Sequence record: PQ850622.1
Direction: 5' to 3' (one strand)
Length of the DNA stretch: 64,000 nt
From: Escherichia phage OliverMaurmann_Bas86
The notes beneath the pieces are model-generated. The model did no database searches. It worked only from the letters and a program-made list of their open reading frames with translations, and was not told the DNA's origin. The stretch's first letter is position 1. Every line of letters begins with the position of its first letter. A program made the position numbers and the translations under genes. Positions 54,950-59,519 of this stretch are shown here, one piece after another.

Positions 54950-55336
54950 TCAGTCACGGGAGCTATTATTGAACACTAAATCACCACAATACATCGGATT
55001 GGTATACCACTTTGGCACCCCTTCGCTCTTACTCTGAAAGTATGTACCGCTGTACAAAGGCACATAATCTTTCTTCAGTGCACGTCTTGCAAGCCGCTCG
55101 CTCTCTCTGATTGATCTCTTTATCAGAGAGTTATCATCACGAATTAGCTTTACATAACGCTTAAAAGGTTTCTCCTTCTTTAATAGGACGGGTATCCACT
55201 CGAACTGGTTTCGTTGATTTATAACCTGCTCGGCAGTCAGTTTTCGTTGTGACATTCTGTTTATTACGGTATCCGCTACTAATGCTTTGCAAGCGGTTGG
55301 CTGATTCCCTGCCTCATAATAAATAGTCAATGTCAA
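54950..55336 (-). CDS. SleB-type cell wall hydrolase (Hydrolase_2) homolog
   Basis: IYYEAGNQP..ALVADTVINRM..VINQRNQFEW matches E-A..AV..V-x-NR..V-x-x-x-x-QF. TTG start; the upstream frame is open to 55363. Confidence 0.65.
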   Translation of the reverse strand: MTLTIYYEAGNQPTACKALVADTVINRMSQRKLTAEQVINQRNQFEWIPVLLKKEKPFKRYVKLIRDDNSLIKRSIRESERLARRALKKDYVPLYSGTYFQSKSEGVPKWYTNPMYCGDLVFNNSSRD

Positions 55337-55389
55337 AAGTAGCTGGGCTGTCGTTATCAGAACTTACTACCCCCTTGTTTTACGGGCAT

Positions 55390-55415
55390 AAAAAAGCCCC
55401 ATCCGAAGACGGGGC
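55390..55415 (-). terminator. Rho-independent terminator (third of three)
   Basis: Minus strand reads GCCCCGTC-ttcg-GATGGGGC followed by TTTTTTAT. Confidence 0.85.
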
Positions 55416-55470
55416 GACCTGAAAGAGTGAACATGACCTCACTCATTTAAGAATCCTCGAAAAGACTCTT

Positions 55471-55494
55471 AAAAAAGCGGCCTCGTTAAAGGCC
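55471..55494 (-). terminator. Rho-independent terminator (second of three)
   Basis: Minus strand reads GGCCT-ttaacg-AGGCC-gc followed by TTTTTT. Confidence 0.65.
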
Positions 55495-55574
55495 CGGTCA
55501 AATGACCATCCAATAGGGGTTGAACCATGCCAATGATTCACAAAGGGAGTTCCCTTTAGGTATCACTAGCTACG

Positions 55575-55596
55575 CAAAAAGCCGCACAAAGGCGGC
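55575..55596 (-). terminator. Rho-independent terminator (first of three)
   Basis: Minus strand reads GCCGC-ctttgt-GCGGC followed by TTTTTG. Confidence 0.65.
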
Positions 55597-55655
55597 AGAC
55601 ACAAAGACGCTCAAGAAGAGCGTCATAGTAGTTGACTACTGGTACAGAAGAGGGC

Positions 55656-56099
55656 TTACTTAACTCTTGCTGTTTTGAGTGGGTCAATATATTTTTCAAC
55701 TCCCCACTTATGCTTACTATCAGCGTAGAAAACATCTGGTGCACATTGGCTAGTAGTAGGAAATGCTTTCGGTGGCTTAGTGCTACCTTTATTCTTCTGC
55801 TTACCTTTAGTGCGACCGTTACAAAAGATTTCTAAACGTTTTTCTTGTTCTGTTTTTGCTGCACCGTTGGTTAACAGAGAACGCTTGTGATCAGCAAGAA
55901 GAAGAGCATCAGCACGATGAACACGACGACCTAACACCTTCGCTACGGTAGAAGGTTTATGTTCTTGAGCGGCTTGTTTGATAGCTCTTCGTTTAAGGCT
56001 ACGTTTGCTAATATGGTTAACAGCGGCTGGCTTTTCTTTTTCCAGCTCACTCATAGAGAACACTCGTCCGCCTTTCATGCTGATTTTAGATTTAGCCAT
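55656..56099 (-). CDS. Basic hypothetical protein
   Basis: 147-aa K/R-rich ORF. A TATAAT hexamer at 56128-56133 (minus) lies upstream. Confidence 0.55.
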   Translation of the reverse strand: MAKSKISMKGGRVFSMSELEKEKPAAVNHISKRSLKRRAIKQAAQEHKPSTVAKVLGRRVHRADALLLADHKRSLLTNGAAKTEQEKRLEIFCNGRTKGKQKNKGSTKPPKAFPTTSQCAPDVFYADSKHKWGVEKYIDPLKTARVK

Positions 56100-56875: not shown

Positions 56876-56908
56876 AAAAGAAAAGGCGCTACCCTTTCGA
56901 ATAGCGCC
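56876..56908 (-). terminator. Rho-independent terminator
   Basis: Minus strand reads GGCGCTA-N10-TAGCGCC followed by TTTTCTTTT. Confidence 0.8.
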
Positions 56909-56927
56909 CCATGTGTTTTATTGTTGG

Positions 56928-57830
56928 TTATGCTGCCAGTTGGCGTGCCGCCATAATCTCGGCAGCTTTGCGTAACACTTCCTCTTCTTCCTGCGCAGCT
57001 TTCTCATTAGCTTTGACAGTTGAAGCGTTTGAGATACGACCGCGAAGGTTAGACAATTTTTCAGTCATTTCATTGATCACCTTTTCCATTTCATCGGCGT
57101 ACGAGTCCAGAGATTCAAGCTCTTTAGTTGAGGCATTAATCAGGTAGTCATCGCTGATAGAAACAGTTGAAGCGGTTACTTTCTTAAGGAGTGAATCGAA
57201 AGTTTTCTTAACTTTGCCTACTTCTTCACTCAATGCGATAGTATTGTCAGAAGATGCGCCGTTGCGTTCATCTGCCAGTAGTGCCGCTTCAATACGGATT
57301 GCAGCCAGACGGTCAACCAGTGCATAAATATCCTGATTAAAGTTTTCGTTAACCTTCTGGTTGATCTGGTTTGCTACCGGAACATTGTCGTTGCAACCTT
57401 TGTAGAATGCTGGGTTATCAACCTGCACGTCTTCACCTTTAGCAAAGCGTTCAAAGGAATTAGACCAGCGGGCGCGGTTTTGTTCCATTTTGGCCTTAAC
57501 TTGTTCCGGTTTAGCATCCTCTTTCGCTTTCGCTTCACCTTCCAGATTAATCCATTTCTTTTTACCGTTCGCCCCGTCGCTGTTGTACTTGATCGGGGTT
57601 AAGAAAGAGATGGCAACCGCAATCACGTCTAAGTCACGATAACGCTCAGTTAACAAGAAATCAACCGCCGCCTGCAATACATCCAGTTTCTTACCGTTGG
57701 TGCGGAAGTGCTGCAAATGGCCTAACAGGAAGTTAGAAACATCTTGTTTGATTGCCGCGTTGTTGCTACGAATGTTGTTAGCCAGTGCATTAAAGCCGGA
57801 TTCGTTAACCAGATTAAAAACTTTAGCCAT
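56928..57830 (-). CDS. Helical early protein of unknown function (300 aa)
   Basis: ATG at 57830 behind ggtga (the track start at 57839 is GTG). First long gene after the promoter/boxA array. Confidence 0.6.
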   Translation of the reverse strand: MAKVFNLVNESGFNALANNIRSNNAAIKQDVSNFLLGHLQHFRTNGKKLDVLQAAVDFLLTERYRDLDVIAVAISFLTPIKYNSDGANGKKKWINLEGEAKAKEDAKPEQVKAKMEQNRARWSNSFERFAKGEDVQVDNPAFYKGCNDNVPVANQINQKVNENFNQDIYALVDRLAAIRIEAALLADERNGASSDNTIALSEEVGKVKKTFDSLLKKVTASTVSISDDYLINASTKELESLDSYADEMEKVINEMTEKLSNLRGRISNASTVKANEKAAQEEEEVLRKAAEIMAARQLAA

Positions 57831-57898
57831 GATATTCACCTTTCAATTGTAAGGGCACTATGCCCCCGCTCTCTATGAGCTTTTTAAGTCACTATTGA

Positions 57899-57938
57899 CT
57901 TATCAATAATCACTCAATATCAAGTAATTATTGATAAG
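57899..57938. repeat. Perfect 12-bp inverted repeat with 16-nt spacer
   Basis: CTTATCAATAAT (57899-910) and ATTATTGATAAG (57927-938), 70-110 nt upstream of ATG 57830. Confidence 0.8.
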
Positions 57939-58650
57939 CGAGGCGGTCTTATCAGGAGTTAACCTTGCCGCCTCCTTATCCGTGATGTTTCATCTGGTAT
58001 CTTTAATTAGTCGCTATAAATAAAGCCGACCTGATAGCGATGATCAATCATCACAATAAGGCAGTGCGTCCGACTCTATTTAATTACTTTATCGTAACCG
58101 TCGGCAATATCGTCTACTTTGCTTTCGCTCCCGCCTATCCTTTTGTACTAACTCTCAATCGCTAACCATCGCCCACTACGGGAGGTTATTGCGAAAGAGT
58201 CATTAGCCGTCTAATGCATTGACGTTTTATATCTTTCAGCAGGTTTACTACATAAACTGATTATGTACGCCATCAATAGTGGCCTCAAATCATTCACATC
58301 GTAAACGTTCACACTAAACCTTATTGTTAAATAGCAATTTGCCACTTTTTAACCATTCACCGCCGCCCCCAATTGGGCGTTAATTCGTCGGATTTGCCTA
58401 CCCTGATAAACTTCTTTCACTGTAGCACCTTGTTAGCGATGGCCGCCGCTACCCTTTAACCGTGGGCGATTAGTTTAGGCCGTTGCGTGTACTCAATGAA
58501 TCCGTTTTATCAGTGGTGACGTTTCCAGTTAAGGGATTGTAAAAACTGTTTACCCTGATAATTTAGGGAGTCTTACGCCGTTTTATCTGGTATGTTTTCC
58601 GATGGTTATTATCATCCAACATATTCAACCGATATAGGAGAATGTTTAAA

Positions 58651-58663
58651 TTGTTAAAGAGCG
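58651..58663 (-). promoter_or_regulatory. rrn-type boxA-like element, copy a (CGCTCTTTAACAA)
   Basis: Minus strand reads CCGCTCTTTAACAATTTAAAC. Hairpin AGTGTG/CACACT (58675-92) lies just upstream on the transcript. Confidence 0.65.
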
Positions 58664-58750
58664 GTAAATCTATCAGTGTGCTTTCTCACACTATGCAACT
58701 GTTAGCCGTTGTTACGCTTTTCTTAAGCGGTGAATTGCTTAAGTGTGCTC

Positions 58751-58779
58751 ATTATGAATCATGCTGTTTTAGCTGTCAA
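58751..58779 (-). promoter_or_regulatory. Sigma70-type promoter P-a
   Basis: TTGACA (58779-74), 17-nt spacer, CATAAT (58756-51). A-rich upstream flank. Confidence 0.65.
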
Positions 58780-58881
58780 CCGCTTTTTTAATCTTTTTCG
58801 TCGTTCCCTTTATTGGGAGGATATATCAATCAGCTATATTTGATTGAAGATTAAGCGGTAAGGCTTAACTCACGATTCATA

Positions 58882-58894
58882 TTTTTAAAGAGCG
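58882..58894 (-). promoter_or_regulatory. rrn-type boxA-like element, copy b (CGCTCTTTAAAAA)
   Basis: One mismatch to copy a. Confidence 0.55.
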
Positions 58895-58917
58895 GTGTTT
58901 CTTACTGCTTGGTGAAC

Positions 58918-58944
58918 ATTCTATCAGAGTGTTCACCTTGTCAA
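58918..58944 (-). promoter_or_regulatory. Sigma70-type promoter P-b (extended -10)
   Basis: TTGACA (58944-39), 15-nt spacer, TG-a-TAGAAT (58923-18). Confidence 0.55.
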
Positions 58945-59016
58945 CTCTTTTTATCATCTTCTTTTATTCTATTCCCTTATCTCGCTTGAATCTATGCGAA
59001 AGGGCAAGATGATAAA

Positions 59017-59029
59017 TTGTTAAAGAGCG
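59017..59029 (-). promoter_or_regulatory. rrn-type boxA-like element, copy c (CGCTCTTTAACAA + TTTATCA)
   Basis: Minus strand reads GGCAC-tta-GTGCC-CCGCTCTTTAACAATTTATCATC. The hairpin at 59031-59043 immediately precedes it. Confidence 0.7.
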
Positions 59030-59075
59030 GGGCACTAAGTGCCGGATGTTTCAAGTCATCGCTGACCGTGTGAAC

Positions 59076-59103
59076 ATCTTATCATAGTGATTCGATGTGT
59101 CAA
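59076..59103 (-). promoter_or_regulatory. Sigma70-type promoter P-c (extended -10)
   Basis: TTGACA (59103-098), 16-nt spacer, TG-a-TAAGAT (59081-76). AAAAATAG lies upstream. Confidence 0.65.
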
Positions 59104-59165
59104 CAACTATTTTTCGATTAATGCATCTTGATAAACTAGCGACCGTTAAGGCCGCTAACCTTACC

Positions 59166-59366
59166 TTAGTTCATACGTTTAAAGGTTAAATCTTTATCCG
59201 TACTTACCAGCGATAACACCGCAATAGCTTTGCCTTTATCGGCATCGGCTACCATCTCTTTTGCCTGCTGTAATGTACTACCGACTATTCTCATAATCAT
59301 GTTAGTAACGTTAATGCTAGTGCAAGTGATTTGCGTGTCTTTGCTTGAGAAGGTGTAGATGTTCAT
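59166..59366 (-). CDS. Small hypothetical protein
   Basis: ATG at 59366 behind gagga is preferred over the track start at 59405. Confidence 0.5.
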   Translation of the reverse strand: MNIYTFSSKDTQITCTSINVTNMIMRIVGSTLQQAKEMVADADKGKAIAVLSLVSTDKDLTFKRMN

Positions 59367-59420
59367 TGATAAATCCTCGTTATGGCATGGTTGAGAGTTT
59401 ATCAAGATACACTAATCGAA

Positions 59421-59433
59421 TTATTAAAGAGCA
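59421..59433 (-). promoter_or_regulatory. rrn-type boxA-like element, copy d (TGCTCTTTAATAA)
   Basis: Preceded on the transcript by hairpin GGCTA-gatgtt-TAGCC (59450-35). Confidence 0.6.
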
Positions 59434-59491: not shown

Positions 59492-59519
59492 AATATACAC
59501 TATCCTAAAACCGTTGCAA
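59492..59519 (-). promoter_or_regulatory. Sigma70-type promoter P-d
   Basis: TTGCAA (59519-14), 16-nt spacer, TATATT (59497-92). Confidence 0.5.

What the first reader, a model, noticed from the sequence alone, without database searches (positions are those of the whole stretch)
57831..58650. ~800-nt ORF-free, repeat- and hairpin-rich leader between the promoter/boxA array and the first long early gene
No ORF longer than about 20 aa with an RBS exists on either strand in this stretch, yet it lies downstream of three strong promoters. Read on the minus strand, it contains short direct repeats: TTATCAGGGTA twice (58560-50 and 58415-05), AGATAAAACGG/TGATAAAACGG (58593-83 and 58514-04), and ATACCAGAT(A/G)AAAC (58600-586 and 58000-57986). 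It also contains several perfect stems: GAGGCGG/CCGCCTC at 57940-74, TCGCTAT/ATAGCGA around 58011-42, and CGCCC-AATT-GGGGGCG around 58365-80. A perfect 12-bp inverted repeat, CTTATCAATAAT-N16-ATTATTGATAAG (57899-938), lies just upstream of the gene. The region could be a long structured leader or ncRNA, a set of protein-binding sites, or a decoy. The TTATCAG core also follows boxA in rrn leaders.
Basis: seen in the sequence. Interest (0 to 1): 0.55.

Follow-up and report, generated by a model that had tools for sequence, protein, structure and literature searches.

The report
Large structured phage early-leader RNA
The gene-free stretch is real: it encodes an intricately folded RNA of about 830 nucleotides at the start of a phiEco32-like coliphage's early transcript, preceded by ribosomal-RNA-type boxA anti-termination signals, and it matches no described RNA family and has no known function.

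Summary
The window is a phiEco32-like E. coli podophage (Gordonclarkvirinae). Positions 57840-58650 (minus strand) lie inside the largest ORF-free gap of the window, downstream of four sigma70-type promoters. Each promoter is followed by an exact rrn-type boxA.

The stretch is not a spacer. It is full-length in all 97 related phage genomes and is locally better conserved than the flanking genes. It folds into a multi-domain RNA with heavy covariation:
- 238 predicted pairs, 99.3% of cells paired (34-46% in slid controls).
- 74 pairs with compensatory double changes (6-9 in controls).
- G·U makes up 10.8% of paired cells and A·C 0.26%, so the structure belongs to the sense transcript, not to DNA.

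A 9-bp helix joins two domains as a pseudoknot. Ten uncultured relatives, only 47-62% identical, keep the same plan: promoter, hairpin, boxA, then an 870-936-nt leader and the same first gene, with the key helices covarying.

There is no Rfam match, no conserved ORF, no tandem repeats and no similarity to the host. I found no published description.

Best reading: a new large structured leader RNA, made Rho-resistant by boxA and the Nus factors, that works as RNA. Its function is unknown; a scaffold or decoy role is favoured over pure cis control.

The parts
59492..59519 (-). Promoter-like site P1 (TTGCAA-16-TATATT), the most upstream module
   Evidence: Read from the sequence. It lies partly outside the range scanned. 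No transcription start has been mapped.
59421..59432 (-). boxA#1, GCTCTTTAATAA
   Evidence: Pattern search; sequence.
59076..59103 (-). Promoter P2 (TTGACA-16-TAAGAT with an upstream TG)
   Evidence: Consensus scan, 10 of 12. The SU10 paper states that three sigma70 promoters lie in this spacer (PMC4281155).
59017..59028 (-). boxA#2, GCTCTTTAACAA. With its flanks, CCGCTCTTTAACAATTTATCA (59030-59009) is identical to the E. coli rrnA leader.
58918..58944 (-). Promoter-like site P3 (TTGACA, 15-nt spacer, TGaTAGAAT extended -10), embedded in a 12-nt inverted repeat
   Evidence: Read from the sequence; inverted repeat I13. The spacer is short, so this is the least certain of the four.
58882..58893 (-). 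boxA#3, GCTCTTTAAAAA
58751..58779 (-). Promoter P4 (TTGACA-17-CATAAT) with an A-rich upstream tract. The inferred start is near 58744.
   Evidence: Consensus scan, 11 of 12. The equivalent promoter lies about 67-76 nt before the last boxA in most distant relatives.
58675..58692 (-). boxB-like hairpin (AGUGUG-AGAAAG-CACACU) 12 nt 5' of the last boxA
   Evidence: Three of six pairs show compensatory change in the 26-sequence alignment. A hairpin with an A-rich loop is kept, with a different stem sequence, in all 10 distant relatives.
58651..58662 (-). boxA#4, GCTCTTTAACAA, which opens the leader
   Evidence: GCTCTTTAA is invariant in all 26 close and all 10 distant sequences; the tenth base is C or T among the close ones.
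58348..58650 (-). Domain I, closed by helix 58650-58638 / 58361-58348. It contains a long bulged arm (58520-58396) and several hairpins.
   Evidence: RNAalifold and pair counts. Covariance model R1 of the arm finds it in distant loci L068 (E 9e-4) and L066 (E 9e-3).
58324..58347 (-). Hairpin (58347-58329) overlapping an invariant boxA-like GCUAUUUAACAA (58335-58324)
   Evidence: UUAACAAU is also kept in the distant relatives shown. Nus binding is untested.
58053..58327 (-). Domain II, closed by the 10-bp helix ACAAUAAGGU/GCCUUAUUGU (58327-58318 / 58062-58053) plus a 5-bp helix
   Evidence: By inspection, the closing helix covaries in the distant set (ACAAUUUGG/CCAAAUUGU).
58462..58470 (-). 5' strand (AUCGCCCAC, in Domain I) of the inter-domain pseudoknot helix
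   Evidence: 100% paired in 26 sequences with two compensated pairs. It is 9/9 in 9 of 10 distant sequences, with variants such as ACGGCCUAC/GUAGGUUGU.
58168..58176 (-). 3' strand (GUGGGCGAU, in Domain II) of the inter-domain helix. It is extended by CCC/GGG (3-6 bp) across an asymmetric loop.
57980..58056 (-). Domain III, a long irregular hairpin. Its base helix is UUGUGAUG/CAUCACGG and its apical loop carries the conserved UUUAUA.
   Evidence: Folded on 17 diverse sequences: 27 pairs, 21 with compensatory change.
57940..57974 (-). Hairpin GAGGCGG...CCGCCUC. An invariant unpaired UGAUAAG sits on its 3' side, and its apical loop is UUAACU, with GGUUAACU invariant.
   Evidence: Three compensated pairs.
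57899..57938 (-). It is a possible RNase III substrate.
   Evidence: I4. Five of ten modelled pairs are compensated and G·U pairs are present. It is 10/10 in 8 of 10 distant sequences.
57852..57902 (-). Three short hairpins (57902-57885, 57880-57868, 57867-57852) just before the ribosome-binding site
   Evidence: Support is weaker: 0, 1 and 1 compensated pairs.
57828..57846 (-). Shine-Dalgarno AAGGUG and the ATG of the first early gene
   Evidence: Sequence. AUCAUGGCUA is conserved in all relatives.
56928..57830 (-). First early gene (300 aa), the homolog of phiEco32 gp124. It always accompanies the leader.
   Evidence: PHROG 13018, function unknown; no Pfam match. The AlphaFold model is mostly helical, with four short strands, and has no PDB fold match.
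56883..56910 (-). Strong intrinsic terminator-like hairpin plus U tract directly after the gene
   Evidence: A terminator is annotated at the same place in phage SU7.

Best explanation
The region is the body of a large leader RNA of about 830 nt. It belongs to a previously undescribed RNA family confined to phiEco32-like (Gordonclarkvirinae) phages and their uncultured relatives.

**Proposed mechanism**
1. Host sigma70 RNA polymerase starts at four tandem strong promoters.
2. Within about 45-75 nt, each transcript carries an rrn-type boxA. The last boxA is preceded by a boxB-like hairpin.
3. boxA recruits NusB/NusE, and with them NusA, NusG and SuhB. The elongation complex becomes resistant to Rho.
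4. This allows polymerase to cross a long untranslated RNA, as in rRNA operons and CRISPR arrays.
5. The leader folds into three domains followed by a chain of hairpins. A 9-bp pseudoknot ties Domain I to Domain II.
6. The folded RNA itself is the selected product.

**Committed guess on function**
- About 45%: it acts as an abundant early RNA scaffold or decoy that binds host or phage protein(s). It would do so either while still at the 5' end of the early transcript or after excision at its long helices.
- About 30%: it acts purely in cis, through mRNA stabilisation, polymerase modification or translation control.

**Status of each step**
- Shown computationally: ORF-free; conserved; covarying sense-strand structure; exact boxA; the architecture is kept in distant relatives.
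- Inferred from established knowledge: the action of Nus/boxA against Rho.
- Speculative: what the RNA does.
For: **Conservation**
- The leader is full-length (810-824 nt) in all 97 related phage records.
- Against Kuravirus relatives it is 85-91% identical, where the next gene is 75%, the following genes about 58%, and the promoter array about 40-47%.

**Structure**
- RNAalifold on 26 distinct sequences gives 238 pairs, 74 with compensatory change.
- 99.3% of cells are paired, against 34-46% when partners are slid. Compensated pairs number 74, against 6-9 slid and 38.7±3 shuffled (0 of 500 shuffles reach it).
- 71 of 81 pairs in which both columns vary are consistent, against a 4.5% background.
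- G·U makes up 10.8% of cells and A·C 0.26%.
- Unpaired bases are 47% A and 10% C.
- MFE z-score is -6.5 for sense and -4.7 for antisense.
- The pseudoknot and the Domain III base helix are verified.

**Distant relatives**
- Ten loci are only 47-62% identical yet keep the promoter, hairpin and boxA, and a leader of 870-936 nt.
- Their own consensus fold has 145 pairs, 85 of them compensated, against 27-36 slid.

**boxA**
- Four exact copies occur in the window, all on this strand and all in the array.
- One copy with its flanks is identical to the rrnA leader.
- Published work shows that boxA/Nus protects long untranslated RNA from Rho (PMC7665894, PMC4807359, PMC5725501).

**Independence from the downstream gene**
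- Leader and gp124 alleles recombine independently.
- The leader is intact in phage myPSH1131, where only residues 1-146 of the gene are matched.
Against: - No expression, end-mapping or probing data were available. The two primary phiEco32 papers (Savalia 2008, Pavlova 2012) are not held in the library.
- No terminator or proven processing site separates the leader from the first gene, so a free trans-acting RNA is unproven.
- The MFE z-score alone is not unique. A terminator cluster at 55000-55810 reaches -5.1.
- The alignments contain clades, so single-pair covariation is cheap (4.5% background). The case rests on stacks of pairs and on the slid controls. No R-scape-type phylogeny-aware test was run.
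- No partner protein was found: the gp124 homolog has no recognisable fold.
- boxC is absent, and Nus binding is untested.
Confidence: 0.6

Rival explanations
1. Purely cis-acting leader. The structure serves only the transcript or the polymerase that makes it. It could work in any of three ways:
- as a barrier to 5'-end-dependent RNase E decay of the early mRNA;
- as a put-like RNA that modifies RNA polymerase so that it reads through the terminators after the first gene and about 1.3 kb further on;
- as a control on translation of the first gene.
For: - It sits immediately downstream of the early promoters and is contiguous with the first gene. No terminator lies between them.
- Intrinsic terminators follow at 56910-56883 and 55600-55395.
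- A chain of hairpins ends 6 nt before the Shine-Dalgarno sequence.
- HK022 put is a precedent for a cis-acting RNA just after early promoters (own knowledge; mentioned in PMC7665894).
Against: - About 830-930 nt, three domains and a conserved inter-domain pseudoknot are far more than known cis elements need; put is about 65 nt.
- The Shine-Dalgarno sequence is not held in any covarying helix. The predicted boxA-RBS pairing has no covariation and is broken in two sequences.
- Promoter-like sites follow the downstream terminators, so read-through is not obligatory.
- The leader and the first gene recombine independently.
Confidence: 0.3
2. Decoy of the rrn operon. The multiple boxA copies and the rRNA-like structured RNA titrate NusB/NusE/SuhB, or ribosomal proteins and assembly factors, away from host rRNA operons. 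This would contribute to host shut-off.
For: - There are four boxA copies and a fifth boxA-like element per longest transcript, behind very strong promoters.
- One module is sequence-identical to the rrn leader.
- The order is boxB-like hairpin before boxA, as in rrn.
Against: - boxA has a sufficient cis role.
- The structured body has no similarity to rRNA or to any host sequence.
- Titration would not require a conserved 3-domain fold.
Confidence: 0.07
3. DNA-level element. The region would be a replication origin, a set of protein-binding sites or operators, or cruciform-forming palindromes in the end of the genome that enters the cell first.
For: - It is gene-free and rich in TGATAA/TTATCA: 13 of the window's 102 copies lie within 1.5 kb.
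- It contains inverted repeats.
Against: - Pairing is maintained through G·U (675 cells) but hardly ever through A·C (16 cells), so only one strand is selected.
- Helices change sequence while keeping their pairing, which destroys any fixed DNA recognition site.
- Long-range helices about 300 nt apart covary.
Confidence: 0.02
4. Hidden coding capacity or a neutral spacer. The region would either encode small proteins or be conserved only by recent common descent or recombination.
For: Some annotators-45-aa ORFs here; for example, the leader match covers four annotated 'hypothetical proteins' in phage 101114UKE3, of which three lie wholly inside it.
Against: - No ORF is kept across the 26 sequences on either strand, and indels break the frames.
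- Conservation exceeds that of the adjacent genes.
- Structure persists at 47-62% identity.
Confidence: 0.01

Closest known systems
E. coli rRNA operon leader with its Nus-factor antitermination site (boxB-boxA-boxC)
   Same: - Tandem strong promoters with A-rich upstream tracts.
- A hairpin, then boxA, in that order.
- boxA identical to the rrn consensus; one copy with its flanks is identical to rrnA over 22 nt.
- A long, structured, untranslated RNA downstream.
- A second boxA-like element after the first large domain, recalling the spacer boxA (own knowledge).
   Different: - No boxC.
- The downstream RNA is unrelated to rRNA.
- It is followed by protein-coding genes.
- It is carried by a virulent phage.
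- There are four promoter-boxA modules in series.
[quoted passage not shown] 2020, PMC7665894)
   Same: The logic is the same: an unusually long untranslated transcript preceded by a boxA that antagonises Rho.
   Different: Here the protected RNA is a single complex fold, not a repeat-spacer array, and no Cas-type processing is involved.
Phage lambda nut sites and HK022 put RNAs
   Same: They are RNA signals placed just downstream of early promoters that reprogramme the host polymerase. Lambda nut also uses boxA and the Nus factors.
   Different: - Lambda has boxA before boxB and needs the N protein.
- put is about 65 nt (two stem-loops) and has no boxA.
- The present element has the rrn order, the rrn consensus and an 830-nt body.
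- No N-like protein was looked for.
Large 'ornate' non-coding RNAs associated with phages or prophages (GOLLD, ROOL) and other large bacterial RNAs (OLE, HEARO)
   Same: - The size class is similar, at roughly 0.6-0.9 kb.
- They have multi-domain folds supported by covariation.
- Unpaired regions are A-rich.
- They are associated with phages.
- Their function is unknown.
   Different: - There is no match to any Rfam model, even at E up to 10.
- This RNA is a 5' leader fused to an mRNA in a virulent coliphage.
- It is coupled to boxA.
Phage T7 early leader (promoters A1-A3, then an untranslated leader with RNase III site R0.3 before gene 0.3); own knowledge
   Same: - Tandem host-type early promoters lie at the genome end that carries the early genes.
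- An untranslated leader follows.
- A long hairpin precedes the first gene; here it is the 16-bp hairpin at 57938-57899.
   Different: The T7 leader is short (roughly 170-430 nt, depending on the promoter) and is not a multi-domain fold. RNase III cleavage here is only conjecture.

Membership tests
rrn-type Nus/boxA antitermination site | boxA RNA matching GCUCUUUAACAA on the transcribed strand | tested here: met
   Four copies match GCTCTTTAANAA exactly, all on the minus strand inside the array. The 22-nt CCGCTCTTTAACAATTTATCA is identical to the rrnA leader of E. coli IAI39. The last copy is invariant over GCTCTTTAA in all 36 sequences.
rrn-type Nus/boxA antitermination site | Located shortly downstream of a promoter, within the transcript | tested here: inconclusive
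   Consensus promoters lie about 45-75 nt upstream of each boxA in the window and in most distant relatives. Sigma70 promoters in this spacer are reported for phiEco32 and SU10 (PMC4281155). No 5'-end data were available to me.
rrn-type Nus/boxA antitermination site | boxB hairpin 5' of boxA (rrn order) | tested here: met
   A hairpin at 58692-58675 covaries, and a hairpin is retained with different stem sequences in all distant relatives. The rrnA leader shows the same order.
rrn-type Nus/boxA antitermination site | boxC (GU-rich, UGUGUGGG-like) 3' of boxA | tested here: not met
   After boxA#4 the sequence is AAUUUAAACAUUCUCC. Compare GACAAUCUGUGUGGG in rrnA.
rrn-type Nus/boxA antitermination site | Binding of NusB/NusE and Nus-dependent resistance to Rho | not testable with these tools
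   This needs binding assays, nusB/suhB hosts and bicyclomycin.
Lambda-type nut site | boxA followed by a boxB hairpin with a GAAAA-type loop, bound by a phage N protein | tested here: not met
   The order is reversed: the hairpin comes before boxA. An N homolog was not searched for.
Any described RNA family (Rfam 15: GOLLD, ROOL, OLE, HEARO, 6S, RNase P, tmRNA, group I/II introns, riboswitches, T-box and others) | A covariance-model score at or near the family's gathering threshold | tested here: not met
   The best hits score 12-20 bits against thresholds of 34-100, at E 0.4-10, and all are eukaryotic miRNA/snoRNA-type chance matches. ARAGORN finds no tRNA or tmRNA.
Structured functional RNA (generic) | Base pairs maintained by compensatory substitutions beyond the phylogenetic background | tested here: met
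   See the numbers in the report.
Structured functional RNA (generic) | Strand specificity (G·U tolerated, A·C not) | tested here: met
   675 G·U cells against 16 A·C cells, out of 6237.
Protein-coding gene or small ORFs | An open reading frame conserved across relatives | tested here: not met
   No ORF of at least 25 aa is shared by all 26 sequences on either strand.
Repeat-based RNA (ToxI-like antitoxin, CRISPR-like array) | Tandem or regularly spaced direct repeats | tested here: not met
   TRF finds none at a score of 30 or more. The repeat finder gives only short two-copy families.
DNA palindrome / operator / origin | A fixed duplex recognition sequence, symmetrical on both strands | tested here: not met
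   The arms of the inverted repeat change sequence while keeping their pairing and use G·U.

The most novel reading that the evidence does not exclude
The leader is a new class of large catalytic or scaffold RNA used by a virulent coliphage in the first minutes of infection. Examples would be an RNA-only or RNA-protein assembly that captures a host factor, or an RNA that neutralises a defence system. It would be produced in rRNA-like amounts because the phage has copied the cell's rRNA transcription and antitermination design.
Probability: 0.35. Interest if true: 0.88.

Novelty: new variant of a known kind. Interest (0 to 1): 0.72.

Why it matters
- **Rarity.** Well-supported bacterial or phage RNAs longer than about 500 nt are rare, and each one found has opened new biology. 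This one sits in a genetically tractable E. coli phage group (phiEco32, SU10, BASEL Bas86-94) that is common in nature. That group is reported to resist many defence systems (PMC11990801).
- **A borrowed host design.** It shows a virulent phage copying the host's rRNA design: tandem UP-element-type promoters, a boxB-like hairpin and boxA. The apparent purpose is to push polymerase through a long untranslated RNA, seemingly without a dedicated N-like protein. That widens the known uses of Nus/boxA antitermination beyond rRNA, suhB and CRISPR arrays.
- **Annotation.** Several deposited genomes call spurious small ORFs across this region.
- **Engineering.** Deleting this "empty spacer" to make room for payloads may not be neutral.

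Tried and rejected
1. **Rfam.** Scans at E up to 1 (3.5 kb) and E up to 10 (0.94 kb) gave only chance hits.
2. **tRNA/tmRNA.** None found.
3. **Tandem repeats.** None found.
4. **Host similarity.** Searching the leader against 5426 E. coli genomes for similarity or antisense complementarity gave no match at E up to 10.
5. **Conserved small ORFs.** None.
6. **Homology to the analogous leader of Salmonella phage 7-11.** nhmmer and covariance model R1, with filters on and off, found nothing.
7. **Wider distribution by exact motif scans.**
   - IMG/VR and metagenome scans returned the same phage group plus chance hits.
   - The GC-rich motif GGGTAGCGGCGG...GCTA was too unspecific.
8. **Function of the adjacent gene.** PHROGs gives "unknown", Pfam nothing, and the AlphaFold model (pLDDT 76.7) has no PDB fold match.
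9. **MFE z-score as a discriminator.** The leader has the lowest of 16 segments, but a terminator cluster comes close, so I do not rely on it.
10. **Predicted pairing of boxA with the RBS (A1 columns 53-63 / 895-905).** It has no covariation and is broken in two sequences. I rejected it.
11. **RNAalifold hairpins at A1 columns 682-695 and 739-756.** I replaced them with the better-supported Domain III base helix.
12. **A possible UGAUAAU/AUUAUCA loop-loop contact.** One side varies without compensation. I rejected it by inspection.
13. **Single-column mutual-information search for tertiary pairs.** It was swamped by clade structure: 4.5% of random column pairs look "covarying".
14. **Literature.**
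   - No paper combines phiEco32 with boxA, or Kuravirus with non-coding RNA.
   - The SU10 paper calls the region a "spacer" holding three promoters.
   - Savalia 2008 and Pavlova 2012 could not be read.
Full report
**What the window is.**
- The region matches 97 phage genomes of the subfamily Gordonclarkvirinae (phiEco32, SU10, SU7, NJ01, BASEL Bas87-94 and others). The nearest is vB_EcoP-101114UKE3, at 99.7% over 1.5 kb.
- In phiEco32 the homologous place is the unannotated gap of about 1.9 kb between genes 125 and 124.
- The SU10 genome paper describes it only as a "spacer region" that holds three sigma70 promoters (PMC4281155).
- Genes here are read on the minus strand.

**Checking the observation.**
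- The stretch 57840-58650 has no ORF above 44 aa on either strand.
- The gap free of any ORF of at least 60 aa spans 57840-59165. At 1326 nt it is the largest in the window; the next is 405 nt.
- Upstream lie four promoter modules, not three. Each is followed by an exact boxA: 59432-59421, 59028-59017, 58893-58882 and 58662-58651.
- boxA#2 with its flanks (CCGCTCTTTAACAATTTATCA) is identical over 22 nt to the leader of an E. coli rrnA operon. There, as here, a hairpin precedes boxA.
They are not individually beyond chance, and there are no tandem repeats.
TCGCTAT/ATAGCGA is not supported by the relatives.

**Conservation.**
- All 97 genomes carry the leader full-length (810-824 nt), at 75-99.8% identity.
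- Against Kuravirus relatives the leader is 85-91% identical to the window. The gene just downstream is about 75%, the next genes about 58%, and the promoter array about 40-47% with many gaps.
- Three phages (NC-B, PAS59, TH34) show the reverse: leader 74-77%, gene 89-96%. So the leader is under its own purifying selection, and it recombines independently of its neighbours.
- No ORF is shared by the relatives on either strand.

**It is an RNA structure.**
- A consensus fold of 26 distinct sequences (alignment A1) has 238 pairs, 74 with compensatory double changes.
- Counted independently, 99.3% of cells form standard pairs, against 34-46% when every 3' partner is slid by 1-3 columns.
- Compensated pairs number 74, against 6-9 when slid and 38.7±3 in shuffles; none of 500 shuffles reaches the observed value.
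- The sequences fall into clades, so single column pairs "covary" cheaply: 4.5% of random variable column pairs do so. Yet 71 of the 81 structural pairs in which both columns vary are consistent.
- G·U pairs make up 10.8% of paired cells and A·C only 0.26%. The selected structure is therefore that of the sense strand, the strand transcribed from the promoters. It is not a DNA cruciform or a palindromic binding site.
- Unpaired positions are 47% A and 10% C. From my own knowledge, this is typical of folded RNAs and makes a poor substrate for Rho.
- The MFE z-score is -6.5 or -5.9 in my own control run. That was the lowest of 16 segments, but a terminator cluster reaches -5.1, so I treat it as supporting evidence only.

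**Architecture (window coordinates, minus strand).**
1. A covarying boxB-like hairpin (58692-58675), then boxA (58662-58651).
2. Domain I (58650-58348).
3. A hairpin overlapping an invariant boxA-like GCUAUUUAACAA (58347-58324).
4. Domain II (58327-58053), closed by a 10-bp helix.
5. Domain III (58056-57980), a 27-pair irregular hairpin. Twenty-one of its pairs are compensated across 17 diverse sequences.
6. Hairpins at 57974-57940 and 57938-57899.
7. Three short hairpins, then the Shine-Dalgarno sequence and the ATG at 57830.

A 9-bp helix, AUCGCCCAC (58470-58462) with GUGGGCGAU (58176-58168), joins Domains I and II across both closing helices, which makes it a pseudoknot. It is 100% paired, with two independent compensations in the close set. 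Further variants occur in distant relatives, for example ACGGCCUAC/GUAGGUUGU. It is extended by a 3-6-bp GGG/CCC helix.

**Depth of the family.**
- The adjacent gene (a homolog of phiEco32 gp124, 300 aa) has homologs down to 45% identity on uncultured contigs of up to 100 kb.
- I fetched ten such loci. All ten share the following:
  - a stretch of about 0.9-3.4 kb with no called gene, or only one or two small ones, upstream of the gene;
  - one to three exact boxA copies within the DNA held (nine of the ten have two or three);
  - a last boxA 870-936 nt before the ATG, compared with 832 nt in the window.
- In most of the ten, a TTGACA-type promoter lies about 45-75 nt before a boxA.
- All ten also have an A-rich-loop hairpin just 5' of the last boxA.
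- Their leaders are only 47-62% identical to the window. Even so, they are detected by a profile of A1. Two of them (L066 and L068) are also detected by a covariance model of the Domain I arm.
- Even with a crude alignment they keep 48-79% of the projected pairs, against 37% when slid.
- Folded on their own, they give 145 pairs, 85 compensated, against 27-36 when slid.
- The family therefore extends well beyond the cultured E. coli phages.
- It was not found in Salmonella phage 7-11. That phage has an analogous ORF-free leader of about 1.05 kb (z = -4.5), but no boxA and no detectable homology.

**What it is not.**
- There is no Rfam family, even at E up to 10.
- There is no tRNA or tmRNA.
- There is no similarity or extended complementarity to any of 5426 E. 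coli genomes.
- There are no repeat arrays and no conserved coding.

**How it most likely works.**
- *Shown.* Promoter consensus sites, exact rrn-type boxA and a long untranslated, folded, conserved RNA occur in that order.
- *Inferred from established work.* boxA RNA is bound by NusB/NusE, and with NusA, NusG and SuhB this gives an elongation complex that resists Rho. That is how cells complete long untranslated transcripts such as rRNA and CRISPR arrays (PMC7665894, PMC4807359, PMC5725501, PMC6614797). An untranslated RNA of about 830 nt is exactly what Rho would otherwise truncate, so the boxA modules and the leader make sense together.
- *Speculative.* The role of the folded RNA is unknown. 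Its size, its three-domain plan with a conserved pseudoknot, its invariant unpaired motifs, its very strong promoters and its independence from the allele of the next gene point one way. They make me favour an RNA that acts as a scaffold or decoy for protein(s), possibly after cleavage at its long helices (about 45%). I rate a purely cis role in mRNA stability, polymerase modification or translation lower (about 30%).
- The adjacent protein gave no clue. It has no Pfam domain, its predicted structure is mostly helical with a long C-terminal helix, and it has no PDB fold match.

**Comparison with what is known.**
- In the way it is transcribed, the element works like an rRNA operon leader, and it meets the sequence definition of an rrn-type boxA site. 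It lacks boxC, and factor binding is untested.
- Its body belongs to no known family. In size and style it is closest to the large "ornate" RNAs of phages and prophages (GOLLD, ROOL), but it does not match their models.
- I found no paper describing it.

**Verdict.**
It is a new, deeply conserved, large structured leader RNA coupled to host-type antitermination signals.
- Novelty: a new variant of a known kind.
- Interest: 0.72.

Noticed in passing
window 59520-58650 (minus strand): This is an array of four sigma70-type promoters with A-rich upstream tracts. Each is followed 45-75 nt later by an exact rrn-type boxA. One boxA with its flanks is identical to the E. coli rrnA leader over 22 nt. 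The layout copies an rRNA operon control region.
   Followed up: yes
window 58911-58937 and 59070-59089: A 12-nt inverted repeat, GGTGAACATTCT/AGAGTGTTCACC, spans the -10 region of promoter P3. A related 20-mer lies at P2 (I13 and D4). It could be an operator for early shut-off or a 5'-terminal hairpin of the transcript.
   Followed up: no
window 59113-59144 and 59389-59420: A 32-nt inverted repeat (84% complementary) brackets the small 66-aa ORF at 59366-59166, between P1/boxA#1 and P2 (I1).
   Followed up: no
window 55395-55600 (minus strand), and about 55335: Three tandem intrinsic terminators, one with a CUUCGG loop, are followed by a promoter-like TTGACA...TATTAT. This explains the low folding z-score (-5.1) of 55000-55810. 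A single strong terminator also sits at 56910-56883, right after the first early gene.
   Followed up: partly
whole window; 57900-59404 in particular: The hexamer TGATAA (both strands) occurs 102 times against 49±6 expected, and 13 of the copies lie within the 1.5-kb promoter-plus-leader region. In the leader, many copies are the complementary strands of helices. The genome-wide excess is unexplained.
   Followed up: partly
L063 (Salmonella phage 7-11, NC_015938 88864-89916): A distant relative has an analogous ORF-free stretch of about 1.05 kb upstream of its first early gene. That gene starts in the same ATCATGGCTAAA context. The stretch has a folding z-score of -4.5, no boxA and no detectable homology to the phiEco32-type leader.
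   Followed up: partly
window 58324-58335: A fifth, imperfect boxA (GCTATTTAACAA) lies inside the leader between Domains I and II and is invariant in 26 sequences. It recalls the second boxA in the 16S-23S spacer of rRNA operons. It is also part of a hairpin and of the Domain II closing helix.
   Followed up: partly
L017 (NC_070982, phage 101114UKE3) 650-2320: The deposited annotation calls nine 30-50-aa 'hypothetical proteins', on both strands, across the promoter array and the leader. None is conserved among relatives, so they are probably over-predictions.
   Followed up: yes
L026, L053, L056-L059: The 21-nt pattern AATTGCTATTTAANAATAAGG also matched six unrelated environmental contigs. These show no wider similarity to the leader and are taken as chance matches.
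   Followed up: partly
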